This document shows, piece by piece, positions 4,872 to 61,629 of a DNA stretch of 64,000 bases (positions within the stretch are counted from its first letter, which is position 1; each line of letters starts with the position of its first letter). The stretch spans positions 1,457-65,456 of the forward strand of contig JAZNAO010000006.1 in the NCBI GenBank assembly GCA_045586565.1, read 5' to 3'. The position numbers were made by a program, and so were the translations under genes. The stretch comes from Candidatus Enterousia sp. (GTDB taxonomy: Bacteria; Pseudomonadota; Alphaproteobacteria; Rs-D84). The notes under the pieces are model-generated. The model was given only the letters and a program-made list of their open reading frames with translations. It was not told the DNA's origin and did not search any database.

Positions 4872-5603
4872 ATGACACGATATAAAGTAATCTTGGAATA
4901 TGATGGCACAGGCCTGATTGGGTGGCAAGAAAACCGCCATGGGCCGTCTGTGCAATCAATTATGAAAGATGCCATTGAATGTTTTTGTGGTGCGCGCGTT
5001 GATGTTGTGGCGGCGGGACGCACAGATGCCGGTGTGCATGCGGTTGCGATGACGGCGCACTTTGACATTGATGGTGAACATGATGCCGAAACCGTTATGC
5101 GGGCATTAAATTTTTATTTGGTAAATAAACCTGTGGCGGTGTTGGATTGTGAAATTGTGCCTGATGAATTTCATGCGCGATTTGATTGTGTCGCGCGCCA
5201 TTATAAATATGTTGTTTTAAATCGTGGGCCGTCACCGGTACTGCAACAAAATCGTGTTTATTGGGTGCCAAAGAAATTAGATGTTGATGCAATGCGTGCA
5301 GCCGCAGAAAAATTAATCGGCAATCATGATTTTACCAGTTTTCGTGCATCTGAATGCCAGGCGAAATCCCCAATTAAAACATTGGACAGAATAGAAATAA
5401 CCCAAAACGGCGACGAAATTATTTTTGAATTTTCTGCGCGTTCGTTCTTGCATCATATGGTGCGTAATATTGTTGGTACACTGATTGAAATTGGTCATGG
5501 TAAACCATATGATATTGATGAAGTGTTGGCGGCAAAGAATCGTGCGGCGGCGGGCCCAACGGCGCCGGCGTCTGGATTATATTTTATGCGCGCAGAATAT
5601 TAA
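4872..5603 (+). CDS. truA: tRNA pseudouridine(38-40) synthase TruA
   Basis: Catalytic motif AAGRTDAGVHA, with TruA-typical length and layout. Confidence 0.9.
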   Translation: MTRYKVILEYDGTGLIGWQENRHGPSVQSIMKDAIECFCGARVDVVAAGRTDAGVHAVAMTAHFDIDGEHDAETVMRALNFYLVNKPVAVLDCEIVPDEFHARFDCVARHYKYVVLNRGPSPVLQQNRVYWVPKKLDVDAMRAAAEKLIGNHDFTSFRASECQAKSPIKTLDRIEITQNGDEIIFEFSARSFLHHMVRNIVGTLIEIGHGKPYDIDEVLAAKNRAAAGPTAPASGLYFMRAEY

Positions 5604-7546
5604 TGCCATGGCCGATTGGCGGGTGTGTATTTTATACGACCATTTGGGTACATTATAAATCCACCACGCAATATTTTGTGTGCACATTTTTCTGAATCTA
5701 TATTCCAATAAGACACAATATAATCCACACTTTCATCATTGCATAATTTTTGCAGATTATTCATCAGTGGTACGAACTTTTGGATATAAACAATATTGTT
5801 ATATCTGTATACACCGTTGTCGTGTTTGCGACGTGGGTTTGGTGTGTCGATTGCTTCGTTATTTAATTTCTTCCACGTGTTAAACGCAAAGAAATGATTT
5901 GATGCACGTGATTTATTAAATTCCAGTTTCCCATTGTCATCGATAAATCCAACCAGTTCATTATCATGCGTTGTATAAAATATCGGCTTTGGTGTTGTCG
6001 AAACATAAATTGCCCCAGACATGCAAAACACAATACACAAGATAATATTTAATCTGATTTTGTATGGTGTGATTACAATCAAACTAATCAGTCCCAATAT
6101 AAAACACATTATTGCAGCATTTGAAATATGTGGTACGTCAATTACAGACATTGGCAATTGTGCAATCCAATTTGCAATCTGAAATGCCATGTCATAAATT
6201 TGGTGCGCCCAGTTTAATGGGAATAAAATCCCAAACACAGATAACAATGCGCCGATTATAACCAGTGGCATAATTGTCACTGAAAATATAGGCAATAAAA
6301 TTAAATTACCCAGTATGCTGTATGTCGGAATTGTACCAAAATGCATGGCAACAAATGGGGCGGTAAATATCCCGGCCCACACAGATGTTAAAACAGATGC
6401 ATATGTAATCTTTAATATTTTGTTATGTGGCATTTTCGGTTTAACGACGTCATACATCCATACCAATCCAAATACCGCGGCAAAAGATAATTGAAATCCA
6501 GCCTGCATTACATAGTGCGGATTTATCAAAAACATTAATATAAAGACCATTGCAATATTACGCATTGAAATTGCACTGCGTCCGAAAATAAATGCCATAA
6601 ATACCAGTGTTGTCATACAAAACGCGCGAAATGTCGCCGTGTCTGCCCCAGATAAACACATATAAAATAATAATCCCGCCCACGCGCATATTAACGCCGG
6701 GGATTTTGCCGGTATCCGTCGTGTGATGTATGGAATACTGCGGAATATGAAAAAGAACACAACAAATAACCATCCGCCCAGTAATGTCATATGAAATCCA
6801 CTGATTGACCAAATGTGTCCGACACCGGCAGATGTCCAAATTACATCATCCTTTTCTGGAACCATGTTTTTATATCCCAACACCAAACTGTCGACCAAGA
6901 AAGATTCTGATTTGTGGTGAATAAATTCGCGCAGATTTACACTGTTTGCATGATTGATAATTTTCAAATCTGTGACATAACCCGTCGCAGTCAGGTTATT
7001 AAAATATGCATGTCGTGCCCAATCAAATGTTTCTGGCGCAGGCGCCGGTGACATACCGAACAGTCCAACCGTTGCAGATATATTGTCACCGACATTTGGC
7101 ACAATAATATCATCGCCAATTTTAACACGCACGCGTGCCATCCCATTGCCTGCGCGAATATCTGATGCACGTACCGATAAATACAAACGTTTGCCGTCTG
7201 GGGTATAGTCAATTGATTCAACAATCGCATTTATATTATGGTCGTGTAAATCATATTTTAGTTTTGGTGTGTCGACTAAATGTGTATATATGAACGCATA
7301 ACAAAAACCAAAACAGAGCAGGGCAATCCCGCGAATAATATTTGGAATTTTATTCCAGAATATAATTGTAATTAACCCCAGTGTAATTATCGGCAATCCA
7401 ATGATGTATGGTTCGGCCGGCATAGTAAAATATAACGCGGCGCCAAACGCCATTAAAAATGGCACGAACCAAAACAAGTTTTCAGATTGATATTTCCACC
7501 AATTTTTCATATCCAAATTATAGGAATTTATTCTGTTGCCCTGCAA
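5600..7546 (-). CDS. comEC: ComEC/Rec2-family DNA internalisation channel protein (no metallo-beta-lactamase domain visible)
   Basis: Polytopic membrane protein with a soluble insertion between N-terminal TMs (DUF4131-like), followed by a competence-domain-like TM bundle. I saw no HxHxDH motif anywhere in the protein. Confidence 0.75.
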   Translation of the reverse strand: MQGNRINSYNLDMKNWWKYQSENLFWFVPFLMAFGAALYFTMPAEPYIIGLPIITLGLITIIFWNKIPNIIRGIALLCFGFCYAFIYTHLVDTPKLKYDLHDHNINAIVESIDYTPDGKRLYLSVRASDIRAGNGMARVRVKIGDDIIVPNVGDNISATVGLFGMSPAPAPETFDWARHAYFNNLTATGYVTDLKIINHANSVNLREFIHHKSESFLVDSLVLGYKNMVPEKDDVIWTSAGVGHIWSISGFHMTLLGGWLFVVFFFIFRSIPYITRRIPAKSPALICAWAGLLFYMCLSGADTATFRAFCMTTLVFMAFIFGRSAISMRNIAMVFILMFLINPHYVMQAGFQLSFAAVFGLVWMYDVVKPKMPHNKILKITYASVLTSVWAGIFTAPFVAMHFGTIPTYSILGNLILLPIFSVTIMPLVIIGALLSVFGILFPLNWAHQIYDMAFQIANWIAQLPMSVIDVPHISNAAIMCFILGLISLIVITPYKIRLNIILCIVFCMSGAIYVSTTPKPIFYTTHDNELVGFIDDNGKLEFNKSRASNHFFAFNTWKKLNNEAIDTPNPRRKHDNGVYRYNNIVYIQKFVPLMNNLQKLCNDESVDYIVSYWNIDSEKCAHKILRGGFIMYPNGRIKYTPANRPWH

Positions 7547-22568: not shown

Positions 22569-22652
22569 CCGCGATAAATAAAAGTTTAGTCTTGCATAAC
22601 ATTTTACAAGAATCTGTGATTCTTGTCATTGCGCGCGCAGCGTGGCAATCCA
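22569..22652 (-). repeat. Dispersed palindromic repeat arm (copy R1)
   Basis: Its reverse complement aligns almost base-for-base with 53191-53283 (CTGGATTGCCACG...ATGACAAGAATCACAGATTCTTGTAAAA...AAACTTTTATTTATCGCGG). Confidence 0.8.
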
Positions 22653-33993: not shown

Positions 33994-34059
33994 TGCGCGG
34001 TAATGACAAGAATTAAAAATTCTTGTAAAATGTTATGCAGATTTAAACTTTTATTTAAG
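33994..34059 (+). repeat. Dispersed palindromic repeat arm (copy F3), inverted relative to R2
   Basis: ...GGTAATGACAAGAATTAAAAATTCTTGTAAAATGTTATGCAGATTTAAACTTTTATTTAAG. It runs directly into the -35 box of the downstream promoter. Confidence 0.7.
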
Positions 34060-34061
34060 TA

Positions 34062-34090
34062 TTGATTCAACTTTTCAAAAATGATAAAAT
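34062..34090 (+). promoter_or_regulatory. Sigma70-type promoter of Cys-rich gene A
   Basis: TTGATT, a 17-nt spacer, then TAAAAT. The same geometry and -10 box recur at 53299 and 55128. Confidence 0.6.
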
Positions 34091-34358
34091 ACATTTGTCG
34101 GTGGGATTTTTCACCGATGGGGTGTGGAAACCCGTTATCTAAGCGTCTATGCACGATTGCATAACGCGCCAATGGCGTGTTTTTTGTGCAGTGTATGGAT
34201 GAAAATTTTTTTCTCCTGATCTTATGTGGTCAGGAGGGCTGCGAATATATTGAATAAGCACACAATTCTTAGATATTGTTTCCAACCTCCTGGCCACCTA
34301 TCTTTTATGGTGGTTTTTGTTTAATTTGCGTATGCAGAACGAAAGGGAGGAAAGTAAT
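34091..34358 (+). promoter_or_regulatory. Conserved structured leader (attenuator-like), copy A
   Basis: Hairpins at 34098-34117 and 34120-34133, and hairpin plus T-run at 34164-34185. Alternative segments: S1 34213-34221, S2 34226-34238, S3 34286-34298, S4 plus T5 34309-34318. Conserved in copies B and C. Confidence 0.6.
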
Positions 34359-35102
34359 ATGCAAAAATTTTTAAAACTAACCGGCGTATCAGTTTTGGCA
34401 ATCGTTGCCGCAACGGGCGCCAATGCCGCGGGATACACCTGTGAAGAATTGATTGAATACACAGCATGTAATGATGGGTGGTATTTAAACGATGGTGATT
34501 GTATAGAAAGCACAACATGTCCATCGGGCAGTTATTTACGTCCGTTTTGTTCAGTGAGCGATTGTGGTGTGAGTTATGATTCTGAGACCGAAGAATATAC
34601 TTGTTGTGATGGTGATTATGTTGCAAACCTGGAATGCATACAATGCCCATCTGTTGGTCTGACTGACAAAGACGGCAAAGTGGTGTCGGTTAAATCACAG
34701 CCTGGCTCAATGGGTGTTGGTTCGTGCTATATTGACCCGAATGCATATTTCAAGGATAGCACGGGGACATATCATTATAAGTCCAATTGTTCTGTGCGTT
34801 TCTGGGAAACATCCCCAGACACAGAAGAAGAATGTACCAGTCTTGGTTTTGAATGGGTATATACAAGTGGTGAATCAGATTCTTATTATGTTTGTGCGTT
34901 GAACATGCGGATTAGTGAACAGTTGGGTTTAATAAAGACAGAAGAAGAATGTAACGCGGCAGCTGAAAAAATATATGGCTTGGTATGGAAAGATGAAGGA
35001 GATTATTATTATTCCAGATGCGAAACCATAAACTACGAAGAGAGTTACTTTATTTTTAGGGATGAATGGTATGTTTTTGGTGATCCTATTTCTCACTCCT
35101 AA
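34359..35102 (+). CDS. Secreted Cys-rich protein, family member A (247 aa)
   Basis: RBS GGGAGGAAAG and signal peptide ...ATGANA|AGYTCEELIEYTAC. Shares the N-terminal module and the CP..GLTDKDG...SC.ID...F.D..G.Y.YK..C module with the protein at 55429. Confidence 0.75.
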   Translation: MQKFLKLTGVSVLAIVAATGANAAGYTCEELIEYTACNDGWYLNDGDCIESTTCPSGSYLRPFCSVSDCGVSYDSETEEYTCCDGDYVANLECIQCPSVGLTDKDGKVVSVKSQPGSMGVGSCYIDPNAYFKDSTGTYHYKSNCSVRFWETSPDTEEECTSLGFEWVYTSGESDSYYVCALNMRISEQLGLIKTEEECNAAAEKIYGLVWKDEGDYYYSRCETINYEESYFIFRDEWYVFGDPISHS

Positions 35103-36786: not shown

Positions 36787-36849
36787 AGTGAACCGATTAT
36801 AGATAAAAAAAATTCTATATTCCACAATTTTATGACATGTATTTTTTTC

Positions 36850-36877
36850 TTGTAATTTTGCGATTCGTATATATAAT
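36850..36877 (+). promoter_or_regulatory. Putative nusA promoter
   Basis: TTGTAA (36850-36855), a 16-nt spacer, then TATAAT (36872-36877). Confidence 0.4.
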
Positions 36878-36906
36878 AAAAGACGTTCTTAAATAAAATT
36901 TTAAGG

Positions 36907-36932
36907 GCGGGGTTGAAAAACCCCGCTCTTTC
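36907..36932 (+). promoter_or_regulatory. Terminator-like hairpin in the nusA 5' leader
   Basis: GCGGGGTT-GAAA-AACCCCGC (8-bp stem, GNRA loop) followed by TCTTTC. It lies between the putative promoter and the nusA RBS. Confidence 0.45.
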
Positions 36933-36967
36933 AGTAAGACATACAATAAATGCAAAGGAGTATATAA

Positions 36968-38506
36968 ATGTCTTTCGTATCGATGCCTCGTCAAGACTTG
37001 TTGTTGGCTATTGATTCTTTGGCCACAGAAAAGATGATTGATCGTGAAATTGTTATTGAATCATTAGAGGCGGCAATCGCTAAAATTGCAAAGCACAAAT
37101 ATGGCGAAGAGTTTAATATCACTGCTGAAATTGATCGCAAAAATGGTGCAATTTATGTAAAACGTTTGTTTGATGTAATTGAATCGCCTGAATCTGTTGG
37201 TGAAGAATATGATGCAAACACAATGTTGACTGTGGCCCAGGCAAAAAAATACTCACAAAATCCATCTGTGGGCGATGTTGTCGAAGATTCTTTGCCAGAA
37301 CCAGAATTTGGTCGTATGGCATTCCAAACGGCAAAGCAAATTATGACTGCGCGCGTTCGTGATGCAGAAAAAGGTCGTCAATATGAAGAATTCAAAGATA
37401 ATATCGGTGATATCATCAGCGGTGTTGTTAAACGCATCGAATTTGGTAATGTTTTTGTTGATATCAATGGCAAGGCCGAAGGTTATATCAAAAGCACAGA
37501 ATTGATTCCTGGTGAACGCTTGGCGGTTGGCGATCGTGTTCGTGCATTGATTATGGATGTTGCACGTTCTAATACAGGTCCCCAGATTTTCTTGACGCGC
37601 ACACATCCAATGTTTATGGAAAAATTGTTTGTCCAAGAAGTGCCTGAAATTTACGAAGGTATCATTAAAATTAAATCTGTATCACGTGCGCCGGGGTCCC
37701 ACGCAAAGATTGCGGTTGAAACCAGCGACCCATCAATTGATGCGGTTGGTATGACTGTTGGTATAAAGGGAACACGTATTCAACCTGTTATCAACGAATG
37801 CCACGGTGAAAAGATTGACGTTATATTGTATTCCGAAGACCCTGCTGTATTTATCGTAAATGCGATGCAGCCTGCCAAGGTCGCTAAAATCATCGTTGAC
37901 GAAGATACACGCAGTGCGGCTGTTGTTGTAAATGAAGATCAACAGTCTTTGGCAATTGGTCGTCGTGGTCAGAATGTTCGTCTGGCGTCTCAATTGACGG
38001 GATGGAATATTGATGTTATGAACGAAACCGAAGAACAAGAACGTCGTGCCAAAGAATTCAAAGAAAAGACAGAACTGTTTATCGGTGGTCTGGACGTTGA
38101 TGAAATGATTGCGCAATTATTGATTACCGAAGGTTTCCGCACAATCGAAGAAATCGCATTTGTTGATATTTCTGAATTGGAAGAAATCGAAGGCTTTAAC
38201 CCAGAATTGGCGGCAGAATTACAGAAACGCGCCAAAGATTATCTGAACAAAATCGAACAAGATTATATTGATAATGGTCATGCGCTGGGTATGTCTGATG
38301 ATTTGTTGAAATTTGACTTTATCAAGCGTCCAACAATCATGAAACTGGGCCAGGCCGGCATCAAATCATTGGAAGATTTGGCAGATTTGGCCACAGATGA
38401 ATTGATTGAAATCTTGGGCGAAGATACAATGTCTAATCGTTTGGCAGGGCGTGTTATTATGAAGGCACGTGAAATCGCATACGATATTAAACAGGACGAC
38501 GAATAA
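36968..38506 (+). CDS. nusA: Transcription termination/antitermination factor NusA
   Basis: S1 and KH regions (IGRRGQNVRLASQLTGWNIDV) and C-terminal acidic repeats. RBS AAAGGAG. Confidence 0.95.
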   Translation: MSFVSMPRQDLLLAIDSLATEKMIDREIVIESLEAAIAKIAKHKYGEEFNITAEIDRKNGAIYVKRLFDVIESPESVGEEYDANTMLTVAQAKKYSQNPSVGDVVEDSLPEPEFGRMAFQTAKQIMTARVRDAEKGRQYEEFKDNIGDIISGVVKRIEFGNVFVDINGKAEGYIKSTELIPGERLAVGDRVRALIMDVARSNTGPQIFLTRTHPMFMEKLFVQEVPEIYEGIIKIKSVSRAPGSHAKIAVETSDPSIDAVGMTVGIKGTRIQPVINECHGEKIDVILYSEDPAVFIVNAMQPAKVAKIIVDEDTRSAAVVVNEDQQSLAIGRRGQNVRLASQLTGWNIDVMNETEEQERRAKEFKEKTELFIGGLDVDEMIAQLLITEGFRTIEEIAFVDISELEEIEGFNPELAAELQKRAKDYLNKIEQDYIDNGHALGMSDDLLKFDFIKRPTIMKLGQAGIKSLEDLADLATDELIEILGEDTMSNRLAGRVIMKAREIAYDIKQDDE

Positions 38507-53190: not shown

Positions 53191-53283
53191 CTGGATTGCC
53201 ACGTTCGTTTCACTCCCTCGCGATGACAAGAATCACAGATTCTTGTAAAAATAGTTGTATAACTAAACTTTTATTTATCGCGG
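53191..53283 (+). repeat. Dispersed palindromic repeat arm (copy F1, solo)
   Basis: CTGGATTGCCACGTTCGTTTCACTCCCTCGCGATGACAAGAATCACAGATTCTTGTAAAA...AAACTTTTATTTATCGCGG. Near-identical in reverse complement at 22569-22652. Confidence 0.8.
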
Positions 53284-53298
53284 TATTCTATTTACCTG

Positions 53299-53327
53299 TT
53301 GACCTAAAATTTTAATATTGATAAAAT
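53299..53327 (+). promoter_or_regulatory. Sigma70-type promoter of Cys-rich gene B
   Basis: TTGACC, a 17-nt spacer, then TAAAAT. Confidence 0.6.
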
Positions 53328-53567
53328 CCTTTTGTCGGTGAGATTTTTCACCGATGGGGTGTAACGACCCGTGCGATAGCGTCTGTGCGATATTTGCGCC
53401 CAGATGAAATTACTCCTGATCTATTCGTGGTCAGGAGGGCTTGTGAATAATGCGTCCGCGCAAAATCAACAGCACAATTCTATCGATTGTCGTTAACCTC
53501 CTGACCACCTGACTTATAAAACGGTGGTTTTTATTTGATAAAACGCAAAGGAAAGGGAGAGTTTTAT
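53328..53567 (+). promoter_or_regulatory. Conserved structured leader, copy B (lacks the internal terminator-like hairpin)
   Basis: H1 and H2 are conserved. Segments: S1 53413-53421, S2 53427-53439, S3 53497-53509, S4 plus T5 53523-53532. Confidence 0.55.
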
Positions 53568-55040
53568 ATGAAAAAGTTTTTTGGTTACACTGTATCAATA
53601 ATGGCAATTTTTGTGGCAAATAATGCATCCGCGGCAGACGGATATACATGTGAAACCAGTCGTGTGTTTACATCGTGTGGTGCAGGTTGGTATTTACAGG
53701 AATCTGTTGCGGGCTCTGGCGAAGGTACGTGTTATGAATGTCCAACCAACTTTAAGAGTGGGGCTGCTGGGATTGTTGGCAAAGATAACTGTGTGGGAAA
53801 TATTGCCGCGGGATATTATTATGACAAGGAAAATGAGACGCGAAAAACATGTCCACAAGGTGCGTCGTATTTTTGCCCAGGGGTATCGAATATTACATAT
53901 GGTAATGCCAGTCGTTCGACAACAACAACCCCGTGTTATGACCCGTCTAATCCAAATGCGATGACGGCAGGATTAAAGAATGTAATTGGTTATAGTAATA
54001 TAACGCGCCTAGAATTGGGTTCATATGGTATTCCAGAAGGTGTTCAGGTAATTACATGGAAACCTGTTGTGGTAAATAGTGGCGGGGCCAGTTCGTATGA
54101 ACATTGTGCCTTTGATTGGACTCAATCAACAAATAATTATAAAATACAGATAATCCCACAAAACAGCCTTACAGGGTCTGGGGTGGCCACTTTAAACATA
54201 ACATCATGCAGCAGTGGACAATTATCGTCGGTTCGAAATGTTAAATTTAATGAGATTGATATTACAACTGGTGGCAGTCCCTTGTTCTCAACAGGATGTG
54301 CCGGCTGTGGCGAAGGTAAGTATTTAAAGTCTGGTGCAACGGAGTGCAGTGCTTGTAACATTCATGATGCGTTGGGCTTGGATACCAGTGTGACAGCAAT
54401 ATGGCAATCTGGTCTGGCTGAAAGCACTGTGGGCTCTTGGGTTTGTCCGTATCGCTTTGAAACGCTTCCTGTTGAAAATGGTGTTGCCACGGGTATATCG
54501 TGCTCGATGACCGATGTCGCCAATGGTACATACAGTTGTCGCTTGTCCCTGGATATAGGACAACTAGGGTGCGATGCGGGTTATATATTGCAAAATGCGG
54601 ACATGACATCCGAAACATTGATTAACTGTGGTGGCCAGGATAATTCGTATGGACAGTCTGTAAATGCTGATACTGATCTTGCAATTGGGCTAGAAATTTT
54701 GACACCGTCAAACTTAAAATGCGTGCCGACACGTATGGGGTGCTATCAGCCAAACGGTCAGGATGAATTTGCAGAAATTACAAACGCTGCGGACTTGATT
54801 ACAGCATTGACTGGCAAGCCTTGTGGCGATGGTAATTATTGTGACAAATCTGCATCTGCGGAACAGACTGCGTGTCCTGCGGTTAAATTGTTCATGCGCG
54901 AAGATGGCAGTGCGGTCAACATGATGTCGGCCGATTATGCAGACGATGCGGCAGACTGTTATGTTCCAGCCAACCCAGATATCTTGTACAAGGACGGAAA
55001 TGGAAACCTGTTCTATCTGGAAAGCAAGTGTGGCTACTAA
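53568..55040 (+). CDS. Secreted Cys-rich protein, family member B (490 aa)
   Basis: RBS AAAGGGAGAG and signal peptide ...NNASA|ADGYTCE. Repeated C-x2-C-P / G-x-Y patterns, and a C-terminal module shared with A and C. Confidence 0.75.
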   Translation: MKKFFGYTVSIMAIFVANNASAADGYTCETSRVFTSCGAGWYLQESVAGSGEGTCYECPTNFKSGAAGIVGKDNCVGNIAAGYYYDKENETRKTCPQGASYFCPGVSNITYGNASRSTTTTPCYDPSNPNAMTAGLKNVIGYSNITRLELGSYGIPEGVQVITWKPVVVNSGGASSYEHCAFDWTQSTNNYKIQIIPQNSLTGSGVATLNITSCSSGQLSSVRNVKFNEIDITTGGSPLFSTGCAGCGEGKYLKSGATECSACNIHDALGLDTSVTAIWQSGLAESTVGSWVCPYRFETLPVENGVATGISCSMTDVANGTYSCRLSLDIGQLGCDAGYILQNADMTSETLINCGGQDNSYGQSVNADTDLAIGLEILTPSNLKCVPTRMGCYQPNGQDEFAEITNAADLITALTGKPCGDGNYCDKSASAEQTACPAVKLFMREDGSAVNMMSADYADDAADCYVPANPDILYKDGNGNLFYLESKCGY

Positions 55041-55127: not shown

Positions 55128-55156
55128 TTGACGTAAATTCTTAAAACTGATAAAAT
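55128..55156 (+). promoter_or_regulatory. Sigma70-type promoter of Cys-rich gene C
   Basis: TTGACG, a 17-nt spacer, then TAAAAT. Confidence 0.6.
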
Positions 55157-55428
55157 TCTTTTGTCGATGGGATTTTTCATCGATGGGGTGTCAAGACCCG
55201 TTTCATTGGCGTTCATGCACGATTGCATAACACGCCATGTGGCGTATTTTTTATGCGATATGTGTATGGGTGATAAATTACTCCTGACCCGTGGTCAGGA
55301 GGGCTGTGAATATATTGAATAAGCACACAATTCCAATGATTGTCTTGAACCTCCTGGCCACCTTTTGTGAAAAACGGTGGTTTTTTGTTTATTTTGGCAA
55401 ACAAAACAAAGGAAAAGGAGAGTTTGTT
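55157..55428 (+). promoter_or_regulatory. Conserved structured leader, copy C
   Basis: H1 carries a compensatory change (TCGATG/CATCGA). Hairpin plus T-run at 55232-55252. Segments: S1 55281-55289, S2 55291-55303, S3 55350-55362, S4 plus T6 55376-55386. Confidence 0.6.
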
Positions 55429-56376
55429 ATGAAAAAAATTTTATTGAGCGGTGCGTCAATCCTGGCAATTATCGCCACCACAAACGCAAATGCCGCCGGA
55501 TATACCTGTGAAGAATTGATTGAATATACATCGTGTAATACGGGATATTATCTAAATGATGGTGATTGTATCCCGGGCAATACATGCCCTGCCGGGAATT
55601 ATTTACAAGGTGTATGTCCAGATGGGTATGAGTATTCTGACACTTGGAGCGTTGAGAATGGTGCAATTGTTTGGGTTAACAATATTACACAAGCAGAGTG
55701 TGAAAATGAAGGAGACTACTGCACTTGGTACGGCGCAGGGTGCCTTATTACAGATGCGGATCCATTTATGGTGGACGATGGATTTATTTCGGCGACAGGA
55801 TATGAATGCACTGCGTGCGCGGCTGGTTCATATCAACCATCTGCGGGTCAATATGAATGTATAACATGTCCGGCGGGGGCATATTGCGGAACGACCGGAT
55901 TGTCCGCTGTATCTGGCCAGTGTGCCAAGGGGACTTATTCGCATGGTGGTGCTGTATCATGTGCCGCATGTCCGGCGACGGGACTGACCGATAAAGATGG
56001 TGCGGTTGTTGTTGCAACAACGCCGACGGCTGGTGCAACGACGATCTCGTCGTGTGTAATTGATGATACGGTTTATTTCAGGGATACCAAAGGTGTATAT
56101 CGTTACAAACAGGATTGTGTATTGCTTGGTGATATAACAGGCACTAACGCTGCAGAGTGTGAATGGGTGGCAGAAATAACCGGTGAAGATTGGAATATGT
56201 TTAATGATGCTTGTAGTTTTAATACCGAAGGAACAACGATTTTGGCACCAGCGACAGAATCTGAATGCCTTGATTTAGGTGGTGATTGGGACACTTATTT
56301 TGAAGAAGGAAAATGCCATTGTGATGGTTGGGTGTGGTATATTAAAGAAGGAAAATTGATGTGTGGGACAGTATAA
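55429..56376 (+). CDS. Secreted Cys-rich protein, family member C (315 aa)
   Basis: RBS AAAGGAGAG and signal peptide ...TTNANA|AGYTCEELIEYTSC. Contains the ephrin-receptor-like/GCC2-GCC3-like stretch CTACAAGSYQPSAGQYECITCPAGAYC...CAKGTY...CAACP. Confidence 0.78.
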   Translation: MKKILLSGASILAIIATTNANAAGYTCEELIEYTSCNTGYYLNDGDCIPGNTCPAGNYLQGVCPDGYEYSDTWSVENGAIVWVNNITQAECENEGDYCTWYGAGCLITDADPFMVDDGFISATGYECTACAAGSYQPSAGQYECITCPAGAYCGTTGLSAVSGQCAKGTYSHGGAVSCAACPATGLTDKDGAVVVATTPTAGATTISSCVIDDTVYFRDTKGVYRYKQDCVLLGDITGTNAAECEWVAEITGEDWNMFNDACSFNTEGTTILAPATESECLDLGGDWDTYFEEGKCHCDGWVWYIKEGKLMCGTV

Positions 56377-61554: not shown

Positions 61555-61629
61555 TGGCACTCCCAACGGGAATCGAACCCGTGTTACCAGAATGAGAATC
61601 TGATGTCCTAACCGCTAGACGATGGGAGC
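61555..61629 (-). tRNA. tRNA-Glu (anticodon CUC)
   Basis: Manual fold of the reverse complement GCTCCCATCGTCTAGCGGTTAGGACATCAGATTCTCATTCTGGTAACACGGGTTCGATTCCCGTTGGGAGTGCCA. It gives a 7-bp acceptor stem (G1-U72 wobble), a Glu-type D arm, anticodon loop TTCTCAT, T-loop TTCGATT, and an encoded CCA. Confidence 0.85.

What the first reader, a model, noticed from the sequence alone, without database searches (positions are those of the whole stretch)
34091..34358. Unrecognised structured leader with four-segment attenuator logic in front of a Cys-rich surface-protein gene (copy A of 3)
Seen directly in the sequence:
- The three Cys-rich secreted-protein genes (starts 34359, 53568, 55429) each follow a TTGAnn-17nt-TAAAAT promoter and a ~240-270 nt leader with the same order of elements.
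- In copy A these are hairpin H1 at 34098-34117 (TCGGTG/CACCGA), H2 at 34120-34133 (GGGT/ACCC, with a different loop in each copy), and a 7-bp hairpin plus T-run at 34164-34185.
- Four mutually exclusive segments follow: S1 CTCCTGATC (34213-34221), S2 GTGGTCAGGAGGG (34226-34238), S3 CCTCCTGGCCACC (34286-34298), and S4 GGTGG plus T5 (34309-34318), just before the RBS.
- S1:S2, S2:S3 (12 bp) and S3:S4 cannot coexist, which is the anti-antiterminator / antiterminator / terminator arrangement of transcription attenuators.
- S2 contains an SD-like AGGAGG and S3 an anti-SD-like CCUCCU.

Inference: this is a cis-regulatory RNA (riboswitch, protein- or RNA-responsive attenuator) controlling a surface-protein family. 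I cannot match it to any riboswitch class, T-box or leader that I know. A short uORF spans S1-S2 in every copy, so ribosome-mediated attenuation is an alternative.
Basis: partly seen in the sequence, partly recalled or inferred. Interest (0 to 1): 0.8.

Follow-up and report, generated by a model that had tools for sequence, protein, structure and literature searches.

The report
Phage-type self-antisense terminator switch leader
The stretch is a real, structured 5' leader RNA that can fold in two mutually exclusive ways, one of which forms a transcription terminator just before a secreted-protein gene. It is not a wholly unknown class: it has the architecture of the phage c4 / IsrK / sRNA-Xcc1 antisense leaders, here multiplied across the small genomes of uncultured gut Alphaproteobacteria.

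Summary
All three leaders (34.1, 53.3 and 55.2 kb) have a promoter, H1, H2, S1, S2, S3 and a hairpin plus U-run.

The element is widespread. More than 114 loci in about 60 gut Alphaproteobacteria MAGs (Candidatus Enterousia and relatives) carry it. It is co-oriented with an ORF that starts a median 27 nt after it.

Covariation supports two alternative folds:
- **Fold Y:** local H2 and S2:S3, which sequesters T.

No Rfam family reaches its gathering score. The 3' half repeatedly matches sRNA-Xcc1 below threshold (31-43 bits). The 5' half of copy A weakly matches isrK.

The two folds map one-to-one onto structures A and B of the Gifsy-1 isrK-orf45 leader. Bona fide IsrK loci are the a1b1 plus C4 antisense RNA module of phage P1.

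The leader is therefore a new variant of a known kind. The differences are an intrinsic terminator as the likely output, no a2/b2 target, no conserved uORF, high copy number, and secreted Cys-rich proteins as cargo. The trigger is unknown.

The parts
34062..34090 (+). Promoter of leader copy A (TTGATT, 17 nt, TG-n-TAAAAT). The transcription start is inferred at about 34095-34097.
   Evidence: A -10 box with at most one mismatch lies upstream of the RNA in 85 of 92 homologues, most often 27-28 nt before the reference point 6 nt ahead of the P1 7-mer.
34097..34118 (+). H1, the 5'-terminal hairpin (GUCGGUGGG / UUCACCGAU).
   Evidence: MFE folds. Copy C carries a G-C to A-U compensatory change (TCGATG/CATCGA). 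The sequence is not conserved in other genomes, but a hairpin is visible at this position in the homologues read (not quantified).
34119..34143 (+). The a1/b1-like 5' strands. GGGGU-G-UGGAAAC (34119-34131) is the P1 5' strand, with the core 7-mer at 34125-34131. UAUCUAAG (34136-34143) is the P2 5' strand. In the alternative fold, 34120-34133 forms the local hairpin H2.
   Evidence: The P1 core shows 7 of 7 Watson-Crick pairs in 85 of 107 unique leaders with many different 7-mers. Cognate versus non-cognate perfect matches are 80.8% versus 0.2% for P1 and 32% versus 1.4% for P2. Helices 2 and 3 are described; H2 pair 3-17 reads GC 69, AU 19, GU 17.
34144..34205 (+). P5, a long hairpin whose tip (34163-34181) plus U-run (to 34185) is a canonical terminator-like site, T0. 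It is present in copies A and C and absent in B.
   Evidence: T0 is present in 28 of 36 type-2 leaders and 0 of 55 type-1 leaders. The whole 34098-34185 stretch gives a weak match to Rfam isrK (20.8 bits, gathering score 50).
34213..34221 (+). S1 (CUCCUGAUC). It pairs with S2 in fold X.
   Evidence: S1:S2 forms a contiguous helix of at least 7 bp in 114 of 127 unique leaders. Both S1 and S3 follow S2 wherever both could be read, seen in the TTGGAGG, TCAGGAGG, GCAGGAGG and GCTGGAGG types and by eye in L015, L094 and L008. Helix 4 is described.
34226..34238 (+). S2 (GUGGUCAGGAGGG). It is the shared partner of S1 in fold X and of S3 in fold Y, and it contains an SD-like GGAGG.
34238..34263 (+). 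P3 hairpin with the near-invariant 15-nt loop GAAUAUAUUGAAUAA (34243-34257).
   Evidence: All five P3 pairs show compensatory changes (helix 5). Among 16 homologues found without using the loop as bait, most keep a loop close to GAAUAYNYWGAAUAA; a few diverge. The loop aligns to hairpin 1 of sRNA-Xcc1. Copy B carries an inserted inner hairpin, as Xcc1 does.
34263..34289 (+). The a'/b'-like 3' strands. CUUAGAUA (34268-34275) is the P2 3' strand and forms the loop of the local hairpin P4 (CAAU 34263-34266 / AUUG 34275-34278). GUUUCCA-ACCUC (34278-34289) is the P1 3' strand.
   Evidence: P4 pair 247-268 reads UA 70 versus AU 36.
34286..34298 (+). S3 (CCUCCUGGCCACC). Its 5' part pairs with the 5' GGGG in fold X. 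All of it pairs with S2 in fold Y. Its 3' part is the 5' arm of terminator T.
   Evidence: S2:S3 forms a contiguous helix of at least 9 bp in 120 of 127 unique leaders. See, helix 3.
34292..34318 (+). Terminator T: GGCCACC (34292-34298), a 10-nt loop, GGUGGUU (34309-34315), and the U-run 34314-34318.
   Evidence: Helices 6 and 7 covary. In 117 unique leaders the median hairpin energy is -9.5 kcal/mol, and 94% have at least 5 U in the next 8 nt.
34345..34361 (+). Ribosome-binding site GGGAGG and the ATG (34359) of the Cys-rich secreted-protein gene (34359-35102).
   Evidence: The median distance from the end of the RNA model to the start codon is 27 nt across 122 loci.
53299..53567 (+). Leader copy B: promoter 53299-53327, H1 53334-53355, P1 53362-53368 with 53489-53495, S1 53414-53422, S2 53427-53439, S3 53497-53509, and T 3' arm plus U-run 53523-53532. 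It has no T0, and its P3 loop carries an inner hairpin.
   Evidence: (47.8 bits with model R1).
55128..55428 (+). Leader copy C: promoter 55128-55156, H1 55163-55184, P1 55191-55197 with 55342-55348, T0 55232-55251, S1 55282-55290, S2 55291-55303, S3 55350-55362, and T 3' arm plus U-run 55377-55387.
   Evidence: (68.7 bits with model R1).

Best explanation
Each of the three stretches is the 5' leader of a secreted Cys-rich protein mRNA and works as a self-antisense conformational switch of the phage c4 / IsrK / sRNA-Xcc1 type.

**Layout.** The 5' domain carries two address segments: the H2 loop (a1-like) and the strand after it (b1-like). They are complementary to two segments of the 3' domain: the junction strand just 5' of S3 (a'-like) and the loop of hairpin P4 (b'-like).

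**Fold X (inferred OFF).** The address segments pair, forming P1/P2. S1 holds S2. The 5' part of S3 is tied to the 5' GGGG. The 3' part of S3 is then free to form the intrinsic terminator T about 40 nt before the start codon.

**Fold Y (inferred ON).** P1/P2 does not form. H2 and P4 stay local, and S2 pairs with all of S3 (9-13 bp), which removes the 5' arm of T.

**Shown here.** The alternative pairings are each supported by covariation. T is a canonical terminator. Fold X is the thermodynamic ground state of the full leader, while the 3' domain on its own prefers fold Y.

**Inferred.** Termination is the regulated step, and something controls whether P1/P2 forms.

**Most likely trigger, by analogy with IsrK (low confidence).** An RNA carrying the same private address acts in trans. 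One candidate is the short 5'-domain RNA ending at T0 in copies A and C. Another is a released 3'-domain RNA.

The invariant P3 loop is probably a binding site for a host factor.
For: **Family and position**
- More than 114 loci matched in species-representative genomes.
- 122 matches to covariance model R1 at E < 0.001.
- 122 of 127 elements have a co-oriented ORF, starting a median 27 nt after the element.

**Fold X**
- 95.1% of cells are paired.
- 29 of 35 pairs show compensatory changes.
- 711 compensatory cells, against at most 114 when the partner columns are slid.

**Fold Y**
- 90.1% of cells are paired, and 19 of 22 pairs are compensatory.

**S1/S2/S3**
- S1 and S3 both follow S2 across several sequence types (and by eye).

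**P1/P2 specificity**
- Cognate versus non-cognate perfect matches: 80.8% versus 0.2% for P1 and 32% versus 1.4% for P2.

**Terminator T**
- Median hairpin energy is -9.5 kcal/mol, and 94% of leaders have at least 5 U in the following 8 nt.

**Energies**
- Full-leader fold X versus fold Y: -89.4/-78.3 (A), -75.5/-66.6 (B) and -88.1/-77.0 (C) kcal/mol.
- The 3' domain alone folds into Y in all three copies.

**Relationship to known RNAs**
- sRNA-Xcc1 matches at 32 bits (E = 0.001) and at 31-43 bits in five other loci.
- A weak isrK match covers H1-H2-T0.
- The published structures A and B of isrK-orf45 (helices b-I, b-II, d-I, d-II) correspond to P1/P2, H2, S1:S2 and S2:S3 (PMC4825925).
- Bona fide IsrK loci consist of isrK/c4-a1b1 followed by C4 and then a Bro-N/antirepressor gene.
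- Bona fide Xcc1 loci in phages show the same 5' domain by eye.
- A viral contig carries the same leader before a phage-like ORF whose family was not tested.
- L094 carries it before a Bro-N gene.
Against: - No experimental 3' ends or structure probing exist for this lineage. Termination at T is inferred from sequence only.
- No Rfam family reaches its gathering score.
- Model R1 does not detect the phage IsrK/C4/Xcc1 loci. Homology therefore rests on sub-threshold matches plus shared architecture and could be convergence.
- Type-1 leaders and copy B lack T0, so a terminated short RNA cannot be the general trigger.
- There is no a2/b2-like second target at the ribosome-binding site.
- The A3 alignment was fitted to fold X, which inflates the pair counts somewhat.
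- H2 and P4 are short, and their covariation rests on few pairs.
Confidence: 0.6

Rival explanations
1. It is a metabolite- or ion-sensing riboswitch. The four-way junction closed by P1/P2, together with the conserved P3 loop, would be an aptamer. Ligand binding would stabilise fold X and cause termination at T.
For: - The element is multi-copy and sits before diverse genes, as second-messenger riboswitches do.
- It has a P1-type closing helix that competes with an antiterminator.
- It has a nearly invariant 15-nt loop and an A-rich linker.
Against: - Most helices of the putative aptamer are free to vary in sequence and length.
- The conserved bases lie in one hairpin loop rather than in junctions.
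- P5 ranges from 12 to about 60 nt and can contain a terminator.
- The architecture matches the antisense leaders c4, IsrK and Xcc1, which work without a ligand.
- No Rfam riboswitch family matched.
Confidence: 0.1
2. It is ribosome-mediated control through a small upstream ORF, as with orf45 in the isrK locus. The SD-like GGAGG of S2 would drive translation starting at the GUG (or UUG) in P3. The translating ribosome would then open S2:S3 and T, or couple translation to the main gene.
For: - GGAGG lies in S2 and is followed by GUG in 58% of leaders.
- The IsrK precedent depends on orf45 translation (PMC4825925).
- In copy C this frame runs into the main ORF. In copy A it ends 36 nt before the ATG.
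Against: - The codon is GCG in 42% of leaders, and its U/C tracks the base-pairing partner in P3.
- Only 3 nt separate GGAGG from GUG.
- The stop of that frame falls before S3 in 38 of 102 leaders, between S3 and T in 13, near the start codon in 26 and beyond it in 25.
- The median frame length of 17 codons is roughly what I would expect by chance in AT-rich sequence; that expectation is my own estimate and was not computed.
Confidence: 0.12
3. It is primarily an independent small-RNA gene, as sRNA-Xcc1 was first described. The roughly 220-nt RNA ending at T, or the roughly 90-nt RNA ending at T0, would act in trans on other targets. The downstream gene would be expressed separately.
For: - T is a strong terminator and fold X is the ground state, so most transcripts should end at T.
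- Xcc1 and IsrK are detected as stable small RNAs (PMC2996969, PMC4825925).
- 'Short' copies with a promoter directly before S2 exist.
Against: - Only about 27 nt (median) separate T from the start codon, which leaves no room for a separate promoter.
- 122 of 127 elements are co-oriented with the next gene.
- The address segments find partners only within the same leader.
Confidence: 0.1
4. It has no RNA function and is a recently duplicated or mobile DNA repeat (a MITE-like promoter cassette).
For: - It has many copies per genome and inverted-repeat-like arms.
- A separate species-specific repeat flanks copies A and B.
Against: - Helices keep pairing while their sequences differ completely between copies and species.
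- Position and orientation relative to start codons are fixed.
- The arms are not conserved, as transposase-binding sites would need to be.
Confidence: 0.02

Closest known systems
Gifsy-1 prophage isrK-orf45-anrP leader (IsrK, Rfam RF01394; Hershko-Shalev et al. 2016, PMC4825925)
   Same: - The order of elements is the same: a promoter, a 5' hairpin, a middle hairpin whose loop and 3' flank pair about 30 nt downstream, and a Rho-independent terminator inside the leader (T0 in copies A and C).
[quoted passage not shown]
- Structure A, with the long-range helix, is the ground state and is inactive. Structure B is active.
- A weak isrK match covers 34098-34185.
   Different: - The isrK model scores only 20.8 bits against a gathering score of 50.
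- There is no conserved orf45-like ORF.
- The output here appears to be an intrinsic terminator T overlapping S3, not translational coupling.
- Type-1 leaders and copy B have no T0, so they cannot make a terminated short isoform.
- The cargo is secreted Cys-rich proteins rather than an antirepressor.
c4 antisense RNA with its a1/b1 sites, from the phage P1/P7 immI operon (Rfam RF01695 and RF03163; Weinberg et al. 2010, PMC2864571; P1 biology taken from established literature, not read here)
   Same: - One transcript carries upstream a1/b1 sites followed by an RNA with a long closing stem, two hairpins, and the complementary a'/b' segments in a junction strand and a hairpin loop.
- Both have a CCACC-like tail after the closing stem.
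- Bona fide IsrK loci are exactly this module.
   Different: - No C4 or c4-a1b1 match appeared in the searched subset of this family, even at E up to 10.
- There are no downstream a2/b2 targets at the ribosome-binding site of the next gene.
- The closing stem is 9-13 bp rather than 17 bp.
- The element sits in the chromosomes of Rs-D84 Alphaproteobacteria, with many copies per genome.
sRNA-Xcc1 (Rfam RF02221), found in integron cassettes upstream of symE and in phages upstream of ant/ORF6N genes
   Same: - It is the best-scoring Rfam family. Full-length alignments of S2-P3-P4-S3-CCACC score 32 bits (E = 0.001) in copy A and 31-43 bits in five other loci.
- The loop motif is shared: AAUA...GAAUAA.
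- The variant L079 2517-2607 and window copy B carry the Xcc1-type inner hairpin in P3.
- Bona fide phage members (86 and 80 bits) show an a1/b1-like 5' domain and T0 by eye, and they lie about 40 nt before the next gene.
   Different: - All matches are below the gathering score of 53 bits.
- Xcc1 was described as an 88-nt trans-acting sRNA (PMC2996969), with no 5' domain and no switch described.
- The Enterousia leaders add a U-run after the hairpin that follows S3, making it a terminator.
Classical transcription attenuators and riboswitch expression platforms (anti-antiterminator / antiterminator / terminator)
   Same: The logic is the same three-way competition between S1:S2, S2:S3 and S3:T, with a P1-type long-range helix deciding the outcome.
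   Different: - There is no leader peptide with regulatory codons, no tRNA-binding T-box elements and no recognisable aptamer.
- The deciding helix has a copy-specific sequence.

Membership tests
sRNA-Xcc1 (RF02221) | Covariance-model score at or above the Rfam gathering score (53 bits) | tested here: not met
   Copy A scores 32.2 bits (E = 0.001). Copies B and C were not reported at E <= 1. Six matches in five other loci of the family score 31.1-42.7 bits. There was no match at gathering in the window or in 18 loci.
sRNA-Xcc1 (RF02221) | Architecture: a closing stem of about 9 bp, hairpin 1 with an AAUA...GAAUAA loop, hairpin 2, a single-stranded junction, and a CACC tail | tested here: met
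   Full-length model alignments were obtained. The S2:S3, P3 and P4 pairs covary.
IsrK (RF01394) / isrK-orf45 switch | Covariance-model score at or above the gathering score (50 bits) | tested here: not met
   20.8 bits (E = 0.032) on 34098-34185. There were no isrK matches in the other loci.
IsrK (RF01394) / isrK-orf45 switch | Two alternative structures: a long-range helix between the middle of the 5' RNA and a downstream segment, versus a local middle hairpin; and the SD segment in a local hairpin versus paired with its 3' end | tested here: met
   Covariation supports P1/P2, H2, S1:S2 and S2:S3.
IsrK (RF01394) / isrK-orf45 switch | A Rho-independent terminator ending a short 5' isoform inside the leader | tested here: inconclusive
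   A canonical hairpin plus U-run is present in copies A and C and in 28 of 36 type-2 leaders. It is absent in copy B and in 0 of 55 type-1 leaders. Whether it terminates transcription was not testable.
IsrK (RF01394) / isrK-orf45 switch | A translated upstream ORF (orf45) whose ribosome-binding site is the switched segment, coupled to the downstream gene | tested here: not met
   GUG is present in only 58% of leaders, the stop position is scattered, and the frame length is roughly what I would expect by chance (my estimate, not computed).
C4 antisense RNA + c4-a1b1 (RF01695, RF03163) | Covariance-model matches at the gathering score | tested here: not met
   Neither family was reported at E <= 10 in copy A or in the 15 loci searched. 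Both are found in the positive-control phage loci.
C4 antisense RNA + c4-a1b1 (RF01695, RF03163) | Upstream a1/b1 sites complementary to a' (junction) and b' (hairpin loop) of the downstream RNA on the same transcript | tested here: met
C4 antisense RNA + c4-a1b1 (RF01695, RF03163) | A second pair of targets (a2/b2) overlapping the ribosome-binding site of the next ORF | tested here: not met
   Cognate a'/b' show no more complementarity to the region from T to the start codon +25 than non-cognate ones do.
C4 antisense RNA + c4-a1b1 (RF01695, RF03163) | Processing of the antisense RNA out of the leader (RNase P in phage P1) | not testable with these tools
   Only the shared CCACC-like tail after S3 can be seen.
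Intrinsic-terminator attenuator | A GC-rich hairpin followed by a U-run just upstream of the gene, with the 5' arm shared with an alternative helix | tested here: met
   (helices 6 and 7). The window copies were missed by the simple terminator scan only because their loops are 10-13 nt.
Known riboswitch / T-box classes | A match to any Rfam riboswitch or T-box model | tested here: not met

The most novel reading that the evidence does not exclude
A phage immunity-type RNA switch (c4/IsrK/Xcc1 lineage) has been domesticated and amplified to many copies in the sub-megabase genomes of Rs-D84 gut Alphaproteobacteria. Each copy carries its own private a/b address. The copies would then form a set of orthogonal, self-addressed RNA switches. 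Each short or released RNA would act only on transcripts of its own locus. This would give bistable, copy-by-copy ON/OFF expression of a variable repertoire of Cys-rich surface proteins: an RNA-based analogue of phase or antigenic variation.
Probability: 0.25. Interest if true: 0.85.

Novelty: new variant of a known kind. Interest (0 to 1): 0.6.

Why it matters
- It gives an uncultured, genome-reduced gut lineage (Candidatus Enterousia, order Rs-D84) an abundant regulatory RNA for what looks like its main surface-protein repertoire.
- It suggests that three Rfam 'sRNA' families curated separately (IsrK/c4-a1b1, C4 and sRNA-Xcc1) describe halves or cousins of one two-domain leader architecture. 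That architecture has now been seen outside phages and integrons.
- It adds an intrinsic terminator as a new output for that architecture.
- The private address helices make the family a natural library of orthogonal RNA switches.
- They also make one question directly testable: do self-targeting small RNAs drive variable surface-protein expression?

Tried and rejected
- **Rfam.** Gathering-score searches of the window and of 18 homologous loci found only tRNAs.
- **Model R1 on phage loci.** R1 was built from type-1 leaders. Run against the phage IsrK/C4/Xcc1 loci, it gave nothing above noise, so sequence-level homology could not be confirmed that way.
- **Alignment of type-2 leaders.** R1 aligns type-2 leaders with the long P5 insertion poorly. 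S1/S2/S3 were therefore analysed with anchored windows in Python rather than with the pair-counting tool.
- **a2/b2 sites.** P1-style target sites at the ribosome-binding site were not found.
- **P0003.** No encoding contig for this protein is on record.
- **Viral contigs.** Only two matches were found, so the family is mainly chromosomal.
- **Weak fourth match.** The R1 match at 36836-36976 was judged to be chance.
- **Not done.** No metagenome-contig scan or structure prediction was run; neither was needed for the question.
Full report
**1. The observation**

The three stretches are real paralogous leaders.

- Each follows a sigma-70-type promoter with an extended -10.
- Each contains, in the same order, a 5' hairpin H1, the GGGGYGU-N4-ACCC block (H2), S1, S2, S3 and a GGTGG plus U-run.
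- The diagnostic 15-mer and 30-mer occur exactly three times in the window.
- The RNAs fold much better than shuffled controls, with z between -3.9 and -6.0.
- Copy B lacks the internal hairpin plus T-run.
- The genes downstream encode signal-peptide-bearing, Cys-rich proteins. One has Ephrin_rec_like repeats.

**2.

The minimum-free-energy folds do not give the proposed S2:S3 helix. Instead, the 'variable loop' of H2 pairs with the 7-mer immediately 5' of S3. The strand after H2 pairs with a segment a few bases further upstream on the 3' side.

| Copy | P1 variable 4-mers | P2 strands |
|---|---|---|
| A | GGAA / TTCC | ATCTAAG / CTTAGAT |
| B | AACG / CGTT | CGATAG / CTATCG |
| C | CAAG / CTTG | TCATTGG / CCAATGA |

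This long-range helix P1/P2 encloses a hairpin P5, the S1:S2 hairpin, and a hairpin P3 with a 15-nt loop.

**3. The family**

- The Cys-rich protein has homologues only in uncultured Alphaproteobacteria MAGs.
- A homologue from another genome has the same leader with different helix sequences.
They come from about 60 different assemblies, mostly named Candidatus Enterousia, 'Alphaproteobacteria bacterium' or Rickettsiales, from ruminant, human, chicken and other guts.
- Enterousia belongs to order Rs-D84. Most of its genomes are smaller than 1 Mbp (PMC12306168).
- Single MAGs carry at least ten loci.
- A covariance model built from 34 type-1 leaders finds all three window copies at 91.7, 68.7 and 47.8 bits.
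- The same model finds 122 elements at E < 0.001 in 100 sources. Sixteen of these lack the bait pattern.

Two main sequence types exist:

| Type | S1 | S2 | S3 |
|---|---|---|---|
| Type 1 | CUCCAACC | GGUUGGAGG | CCUCCAACC |
| Type 2 (the window) | CUCCUGAYC | GGUCAGGAGG | CCUCCUGRCC |

**4. Two folds, both supported by covariation**

*Fold X: P1, P2, S1:S2, P3 and T, counted on 120 distinct sequences.*
- 95.1% of cells are paired.
- 29 of 35 pairs have compensatory changes.
- There are 711 compensatory cells, against at most 114 for slid partner columns.
- The alignment was fitted to this structure, so these counts lean towards it.

*Independent, alignment-free checks for fold X.*
- The 7-mer 5' of S3 has a perfect Watson-Crick partner in its own upstream region in 85 of 107 unique leaders.
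- In the cognate versus non-cognate test this is 80.8% versus 0.2%.
- The P2 strand gives 32% versus 1.4%.

*Fold Y: H2, S2:S3, P3 and P4.*
- 90.1% of cells are paired, and 19 of 22 pairs are compensatory.
- The H2 pair 3-17 reads GC 69, AU 19, GU 17. Its fold-X partner, a U in S3, is nearly invariant (U in 101 of 114 cells), so this variation is best explained by the local hairpin.

*Anchored-window analysis of S1, S2 and S3.*
- S2:S3 is a contiguous helix of at least 9 bp in 120 of 127 unique leaders.
- S1:S2 is a contiguous helix of at least 7 bp in 114 of 127.
- S1 and S3 both track S2 in the TTGGAGG, TCAGGAGG, GCAGGAGG and GCTGGAGG types; in rarer types such as ATTGGAGG, TCGGGAGG and GCGGGAGG the anchored search read only one partner, but L015, L094 and L008 show both by eye.
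- This three-way covariation is the strongest evidence that S2 really alternates between its two partners.

**5. The terminator and the genes**

- The hairpin after S3 shares its 5' arm with S3 and covaries.
- Its median folding energy is -9.5 kcal/mol. In 94% of 117 unique leaders it is followed by at least 5 U in 8 nt.
- 122 of 127 elements have a co-oriented ORF, starting a median 27 nt after the model end.
- About 60% of the products have signal-peptide-like N-termini.
- The other products sampled include small HTH_3/XRE proteins, HsdM, a Bro-N protein and a UvrD-like helicase; three small proteins matched no Pfam family.

**6. Energetics**

| Copy | Fold X (kcal/mol) | Fold Y (kcal/mol) |
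|---|---|---|
| A | -89.4 | -78.3 |
| B | -75.5 | -66.6 |
| C | -88.1 | -77.0 |

- In the full leaders, fold X is 9-11 kcal/mol more stable than the best fold containing S2:S3.
- Without the 5' domain, the 3' part folds into S2:S3 in all three copies, and T is lost.
- Whether P1/P2 forms therefore decides whether the terminator forms.

**7. Comparison with known RNAs**

*Rfam matches to this family.*
- No Rfam family reaches its gathering score.
- In E-value mode the 3' domain of copy A aligns end to end with sRNA-Xcc1 at 32.2 bits, E = 0.001.
- Six further matches in five other loci score 31-43 bits.
- One variant (L079 2517-2607) and window copy B carry the Xcc1-type inner hairpin in P3.
- The 5' domain of copy A (H1-H2-T0) gives a weak isrK match at 20.8 bits.

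*The IsrK paper.* It describes exactly this logic (PMC4825925).
- Structure A is inactive. The middle of IsrK pairs with about 30 nt downstream, and the SD segment sits in a local hairpin.
- Structure B is active. The middle hairpin is local, and the SD segment pairs with its own 3' end.
- A short isoform, ended by IsrK's own terminator, acts in trans on the read-through transcript.

*Bona fide phage loci.*
- Bona fide IsrK phage loci consist of isrK overlapping c4-a1b1, followed by C4 antisense RNA and a Bro-N/antirepressor gene. This is the immI-type module of phages P1 and P7.
- Bona fide Xcc1 loci in phage Aaphi23 and in Stx phages (86 and 80 bits) show an H2/P1/P2/T0 5' domain by eye. They lie about 40 nt before the next gene.
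- A viral contig carries the Enterousia-type leader before a phage-like ORF whose family was not tested.

My model R1 does not detect the phage loci. I therefore rate the relationship as probable distant homology, not proven.

**8. Differences from the known systems**

- There is no conserved orf45-like ORF. The start codon is GUG in 58% and GCG in 42% of leaders, and stop positions are scattered.
- There is no a2/b2 target at the ribosome-binding site.
- The hairpin after S3 has acquired a U-run, so the likely output is transcription termination.
- T0 exists in 28 of 36 type-2 leaders and in 0 of 55 type-1 leaders.
- The cargo is mostly secreted Cys-rich proteins.
- Copy number is high, and each copy has its own address sequences.

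**9. Mechanism and what remains open**

*Shown.*
- The two sets of pairings.
- The terminator features.
- The promoter and gene geometry.
- The thermodynamic hierarchy of the folds.

*Inferred.*
- Fold X terminates transcription and fold Y reads through.

*Unknown.*
- What prevents or dissolves P1/P2.
- By analogy with IsrK, a trans-acting RNA with the same address is the leading candidate for copies A and C. It cannot be general, because type-1 leaders and copy B lack T0.
- The near-invariant P3 loop (two GAAUA repeats) suggests a protein or other factor.
- A small-molecule ligand and a uORF mechanism remain possible but are less likely.

**10. Verdict**

- The element is a new variant of the c4/IsrK/Xcc1 kind of leader, and it is not yet represented in Rfam at threshold.

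Noticed in passing
window 22606-22626, 34006-34026, 53226-53246: An exact palindrome, ACAAGAAT-N5-ATTCTTGT, occurs three times in the window against 0.06 expected. It lies inside a longer shared flank (ATGACAAGAAT...ATTCTTGTAAAA...CTAAACTTTTATTTA). Two copies sit about 60 nt upstream of the -35 of leaders A and B, within a second promoter-like site (ATGACA-17-TAAAAT). The third is in the opposite orientation in an intergenic region. The palindrome is absent from all 120 fetched loci, so it is species-specific. It may be an operator or a small repeat element.
   Followed up: partly
window 34163-34185 and 55232-55251: A canonical terminator-like hairpin plus U-run (T0) sits inside the leader, upstream of S1. 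It is conserved in 28 of 36 type-2 leaders and absent from all 55 type-1 leaders and from copy B. By analogy with IsrK it would release a short 5'-domain RNA of about 90 nt.
   Followed up: partly
window 36836-36976 (+): A weak match to the leader model R1 (19 bits, E = 0.011) lies just upstream of nusA. It lacks the conserved loop and is probably chance.
   Followed up: no
L016 2783-3102, L042 6180-6505, L043 210-534, L038 5565-6131: Leaders occur in tandem. Some second copies are 'short forms' with a promoter directly before S2 and no a1/b1 domain, resembling a stand-alone Xcc1-type RNA. L038 has three copies in a row.
   Followed up: no
L079 2430-2640: A variant leader in an Enterousia-like MAG has an Xcc1-type P3 (with inner hairpin). 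At 42.7 bits it is the best sRNA-Xcc1 score in the family, and it bridges the Enterousia leaders and the Rfam family.
   Followed up: partly
L121 (IMG/VR contig), minus strand near 5400-5700: The same leader (exact P3 loop, T0-like hairpin, no U-run after the last hairpin) precedes a phage-like ORF on a viral contig; I took it for an Rha/antirepressor-type protein from its N-terminus, without a family search. Only 2 viral contigs matched the bait pattern.
   Followed up: partly
L117 770-1000 and L118 795-975 (phage Aaphi23; Stx phage P13374): Bona fide sRNA-Xcc1 members have, by eye, an upstream domain with a hairpin whose loop pairs with the Xcc1 junction strand, plus an internal hairpin and U7. 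In P13374 the RNA is annotated as a small CDS, 'antB2'. This suggests the Rfam Xcc1 model covers only half of a larger leader.
   Followed up: partly
window 34359-35102, 53568-55040, 55429-56376: The three downstream proteins share a signal peptide and a GYTCE... N-terminus, then diverge strongly. They belong to a family with well over a dozen named paralogues in one MAG (locus tags IKB10_...).
   Followed up: no
window 61558-61629 (-): A tRNA gene, the only match at Rfam gathering score in the window.
   Followed up: no
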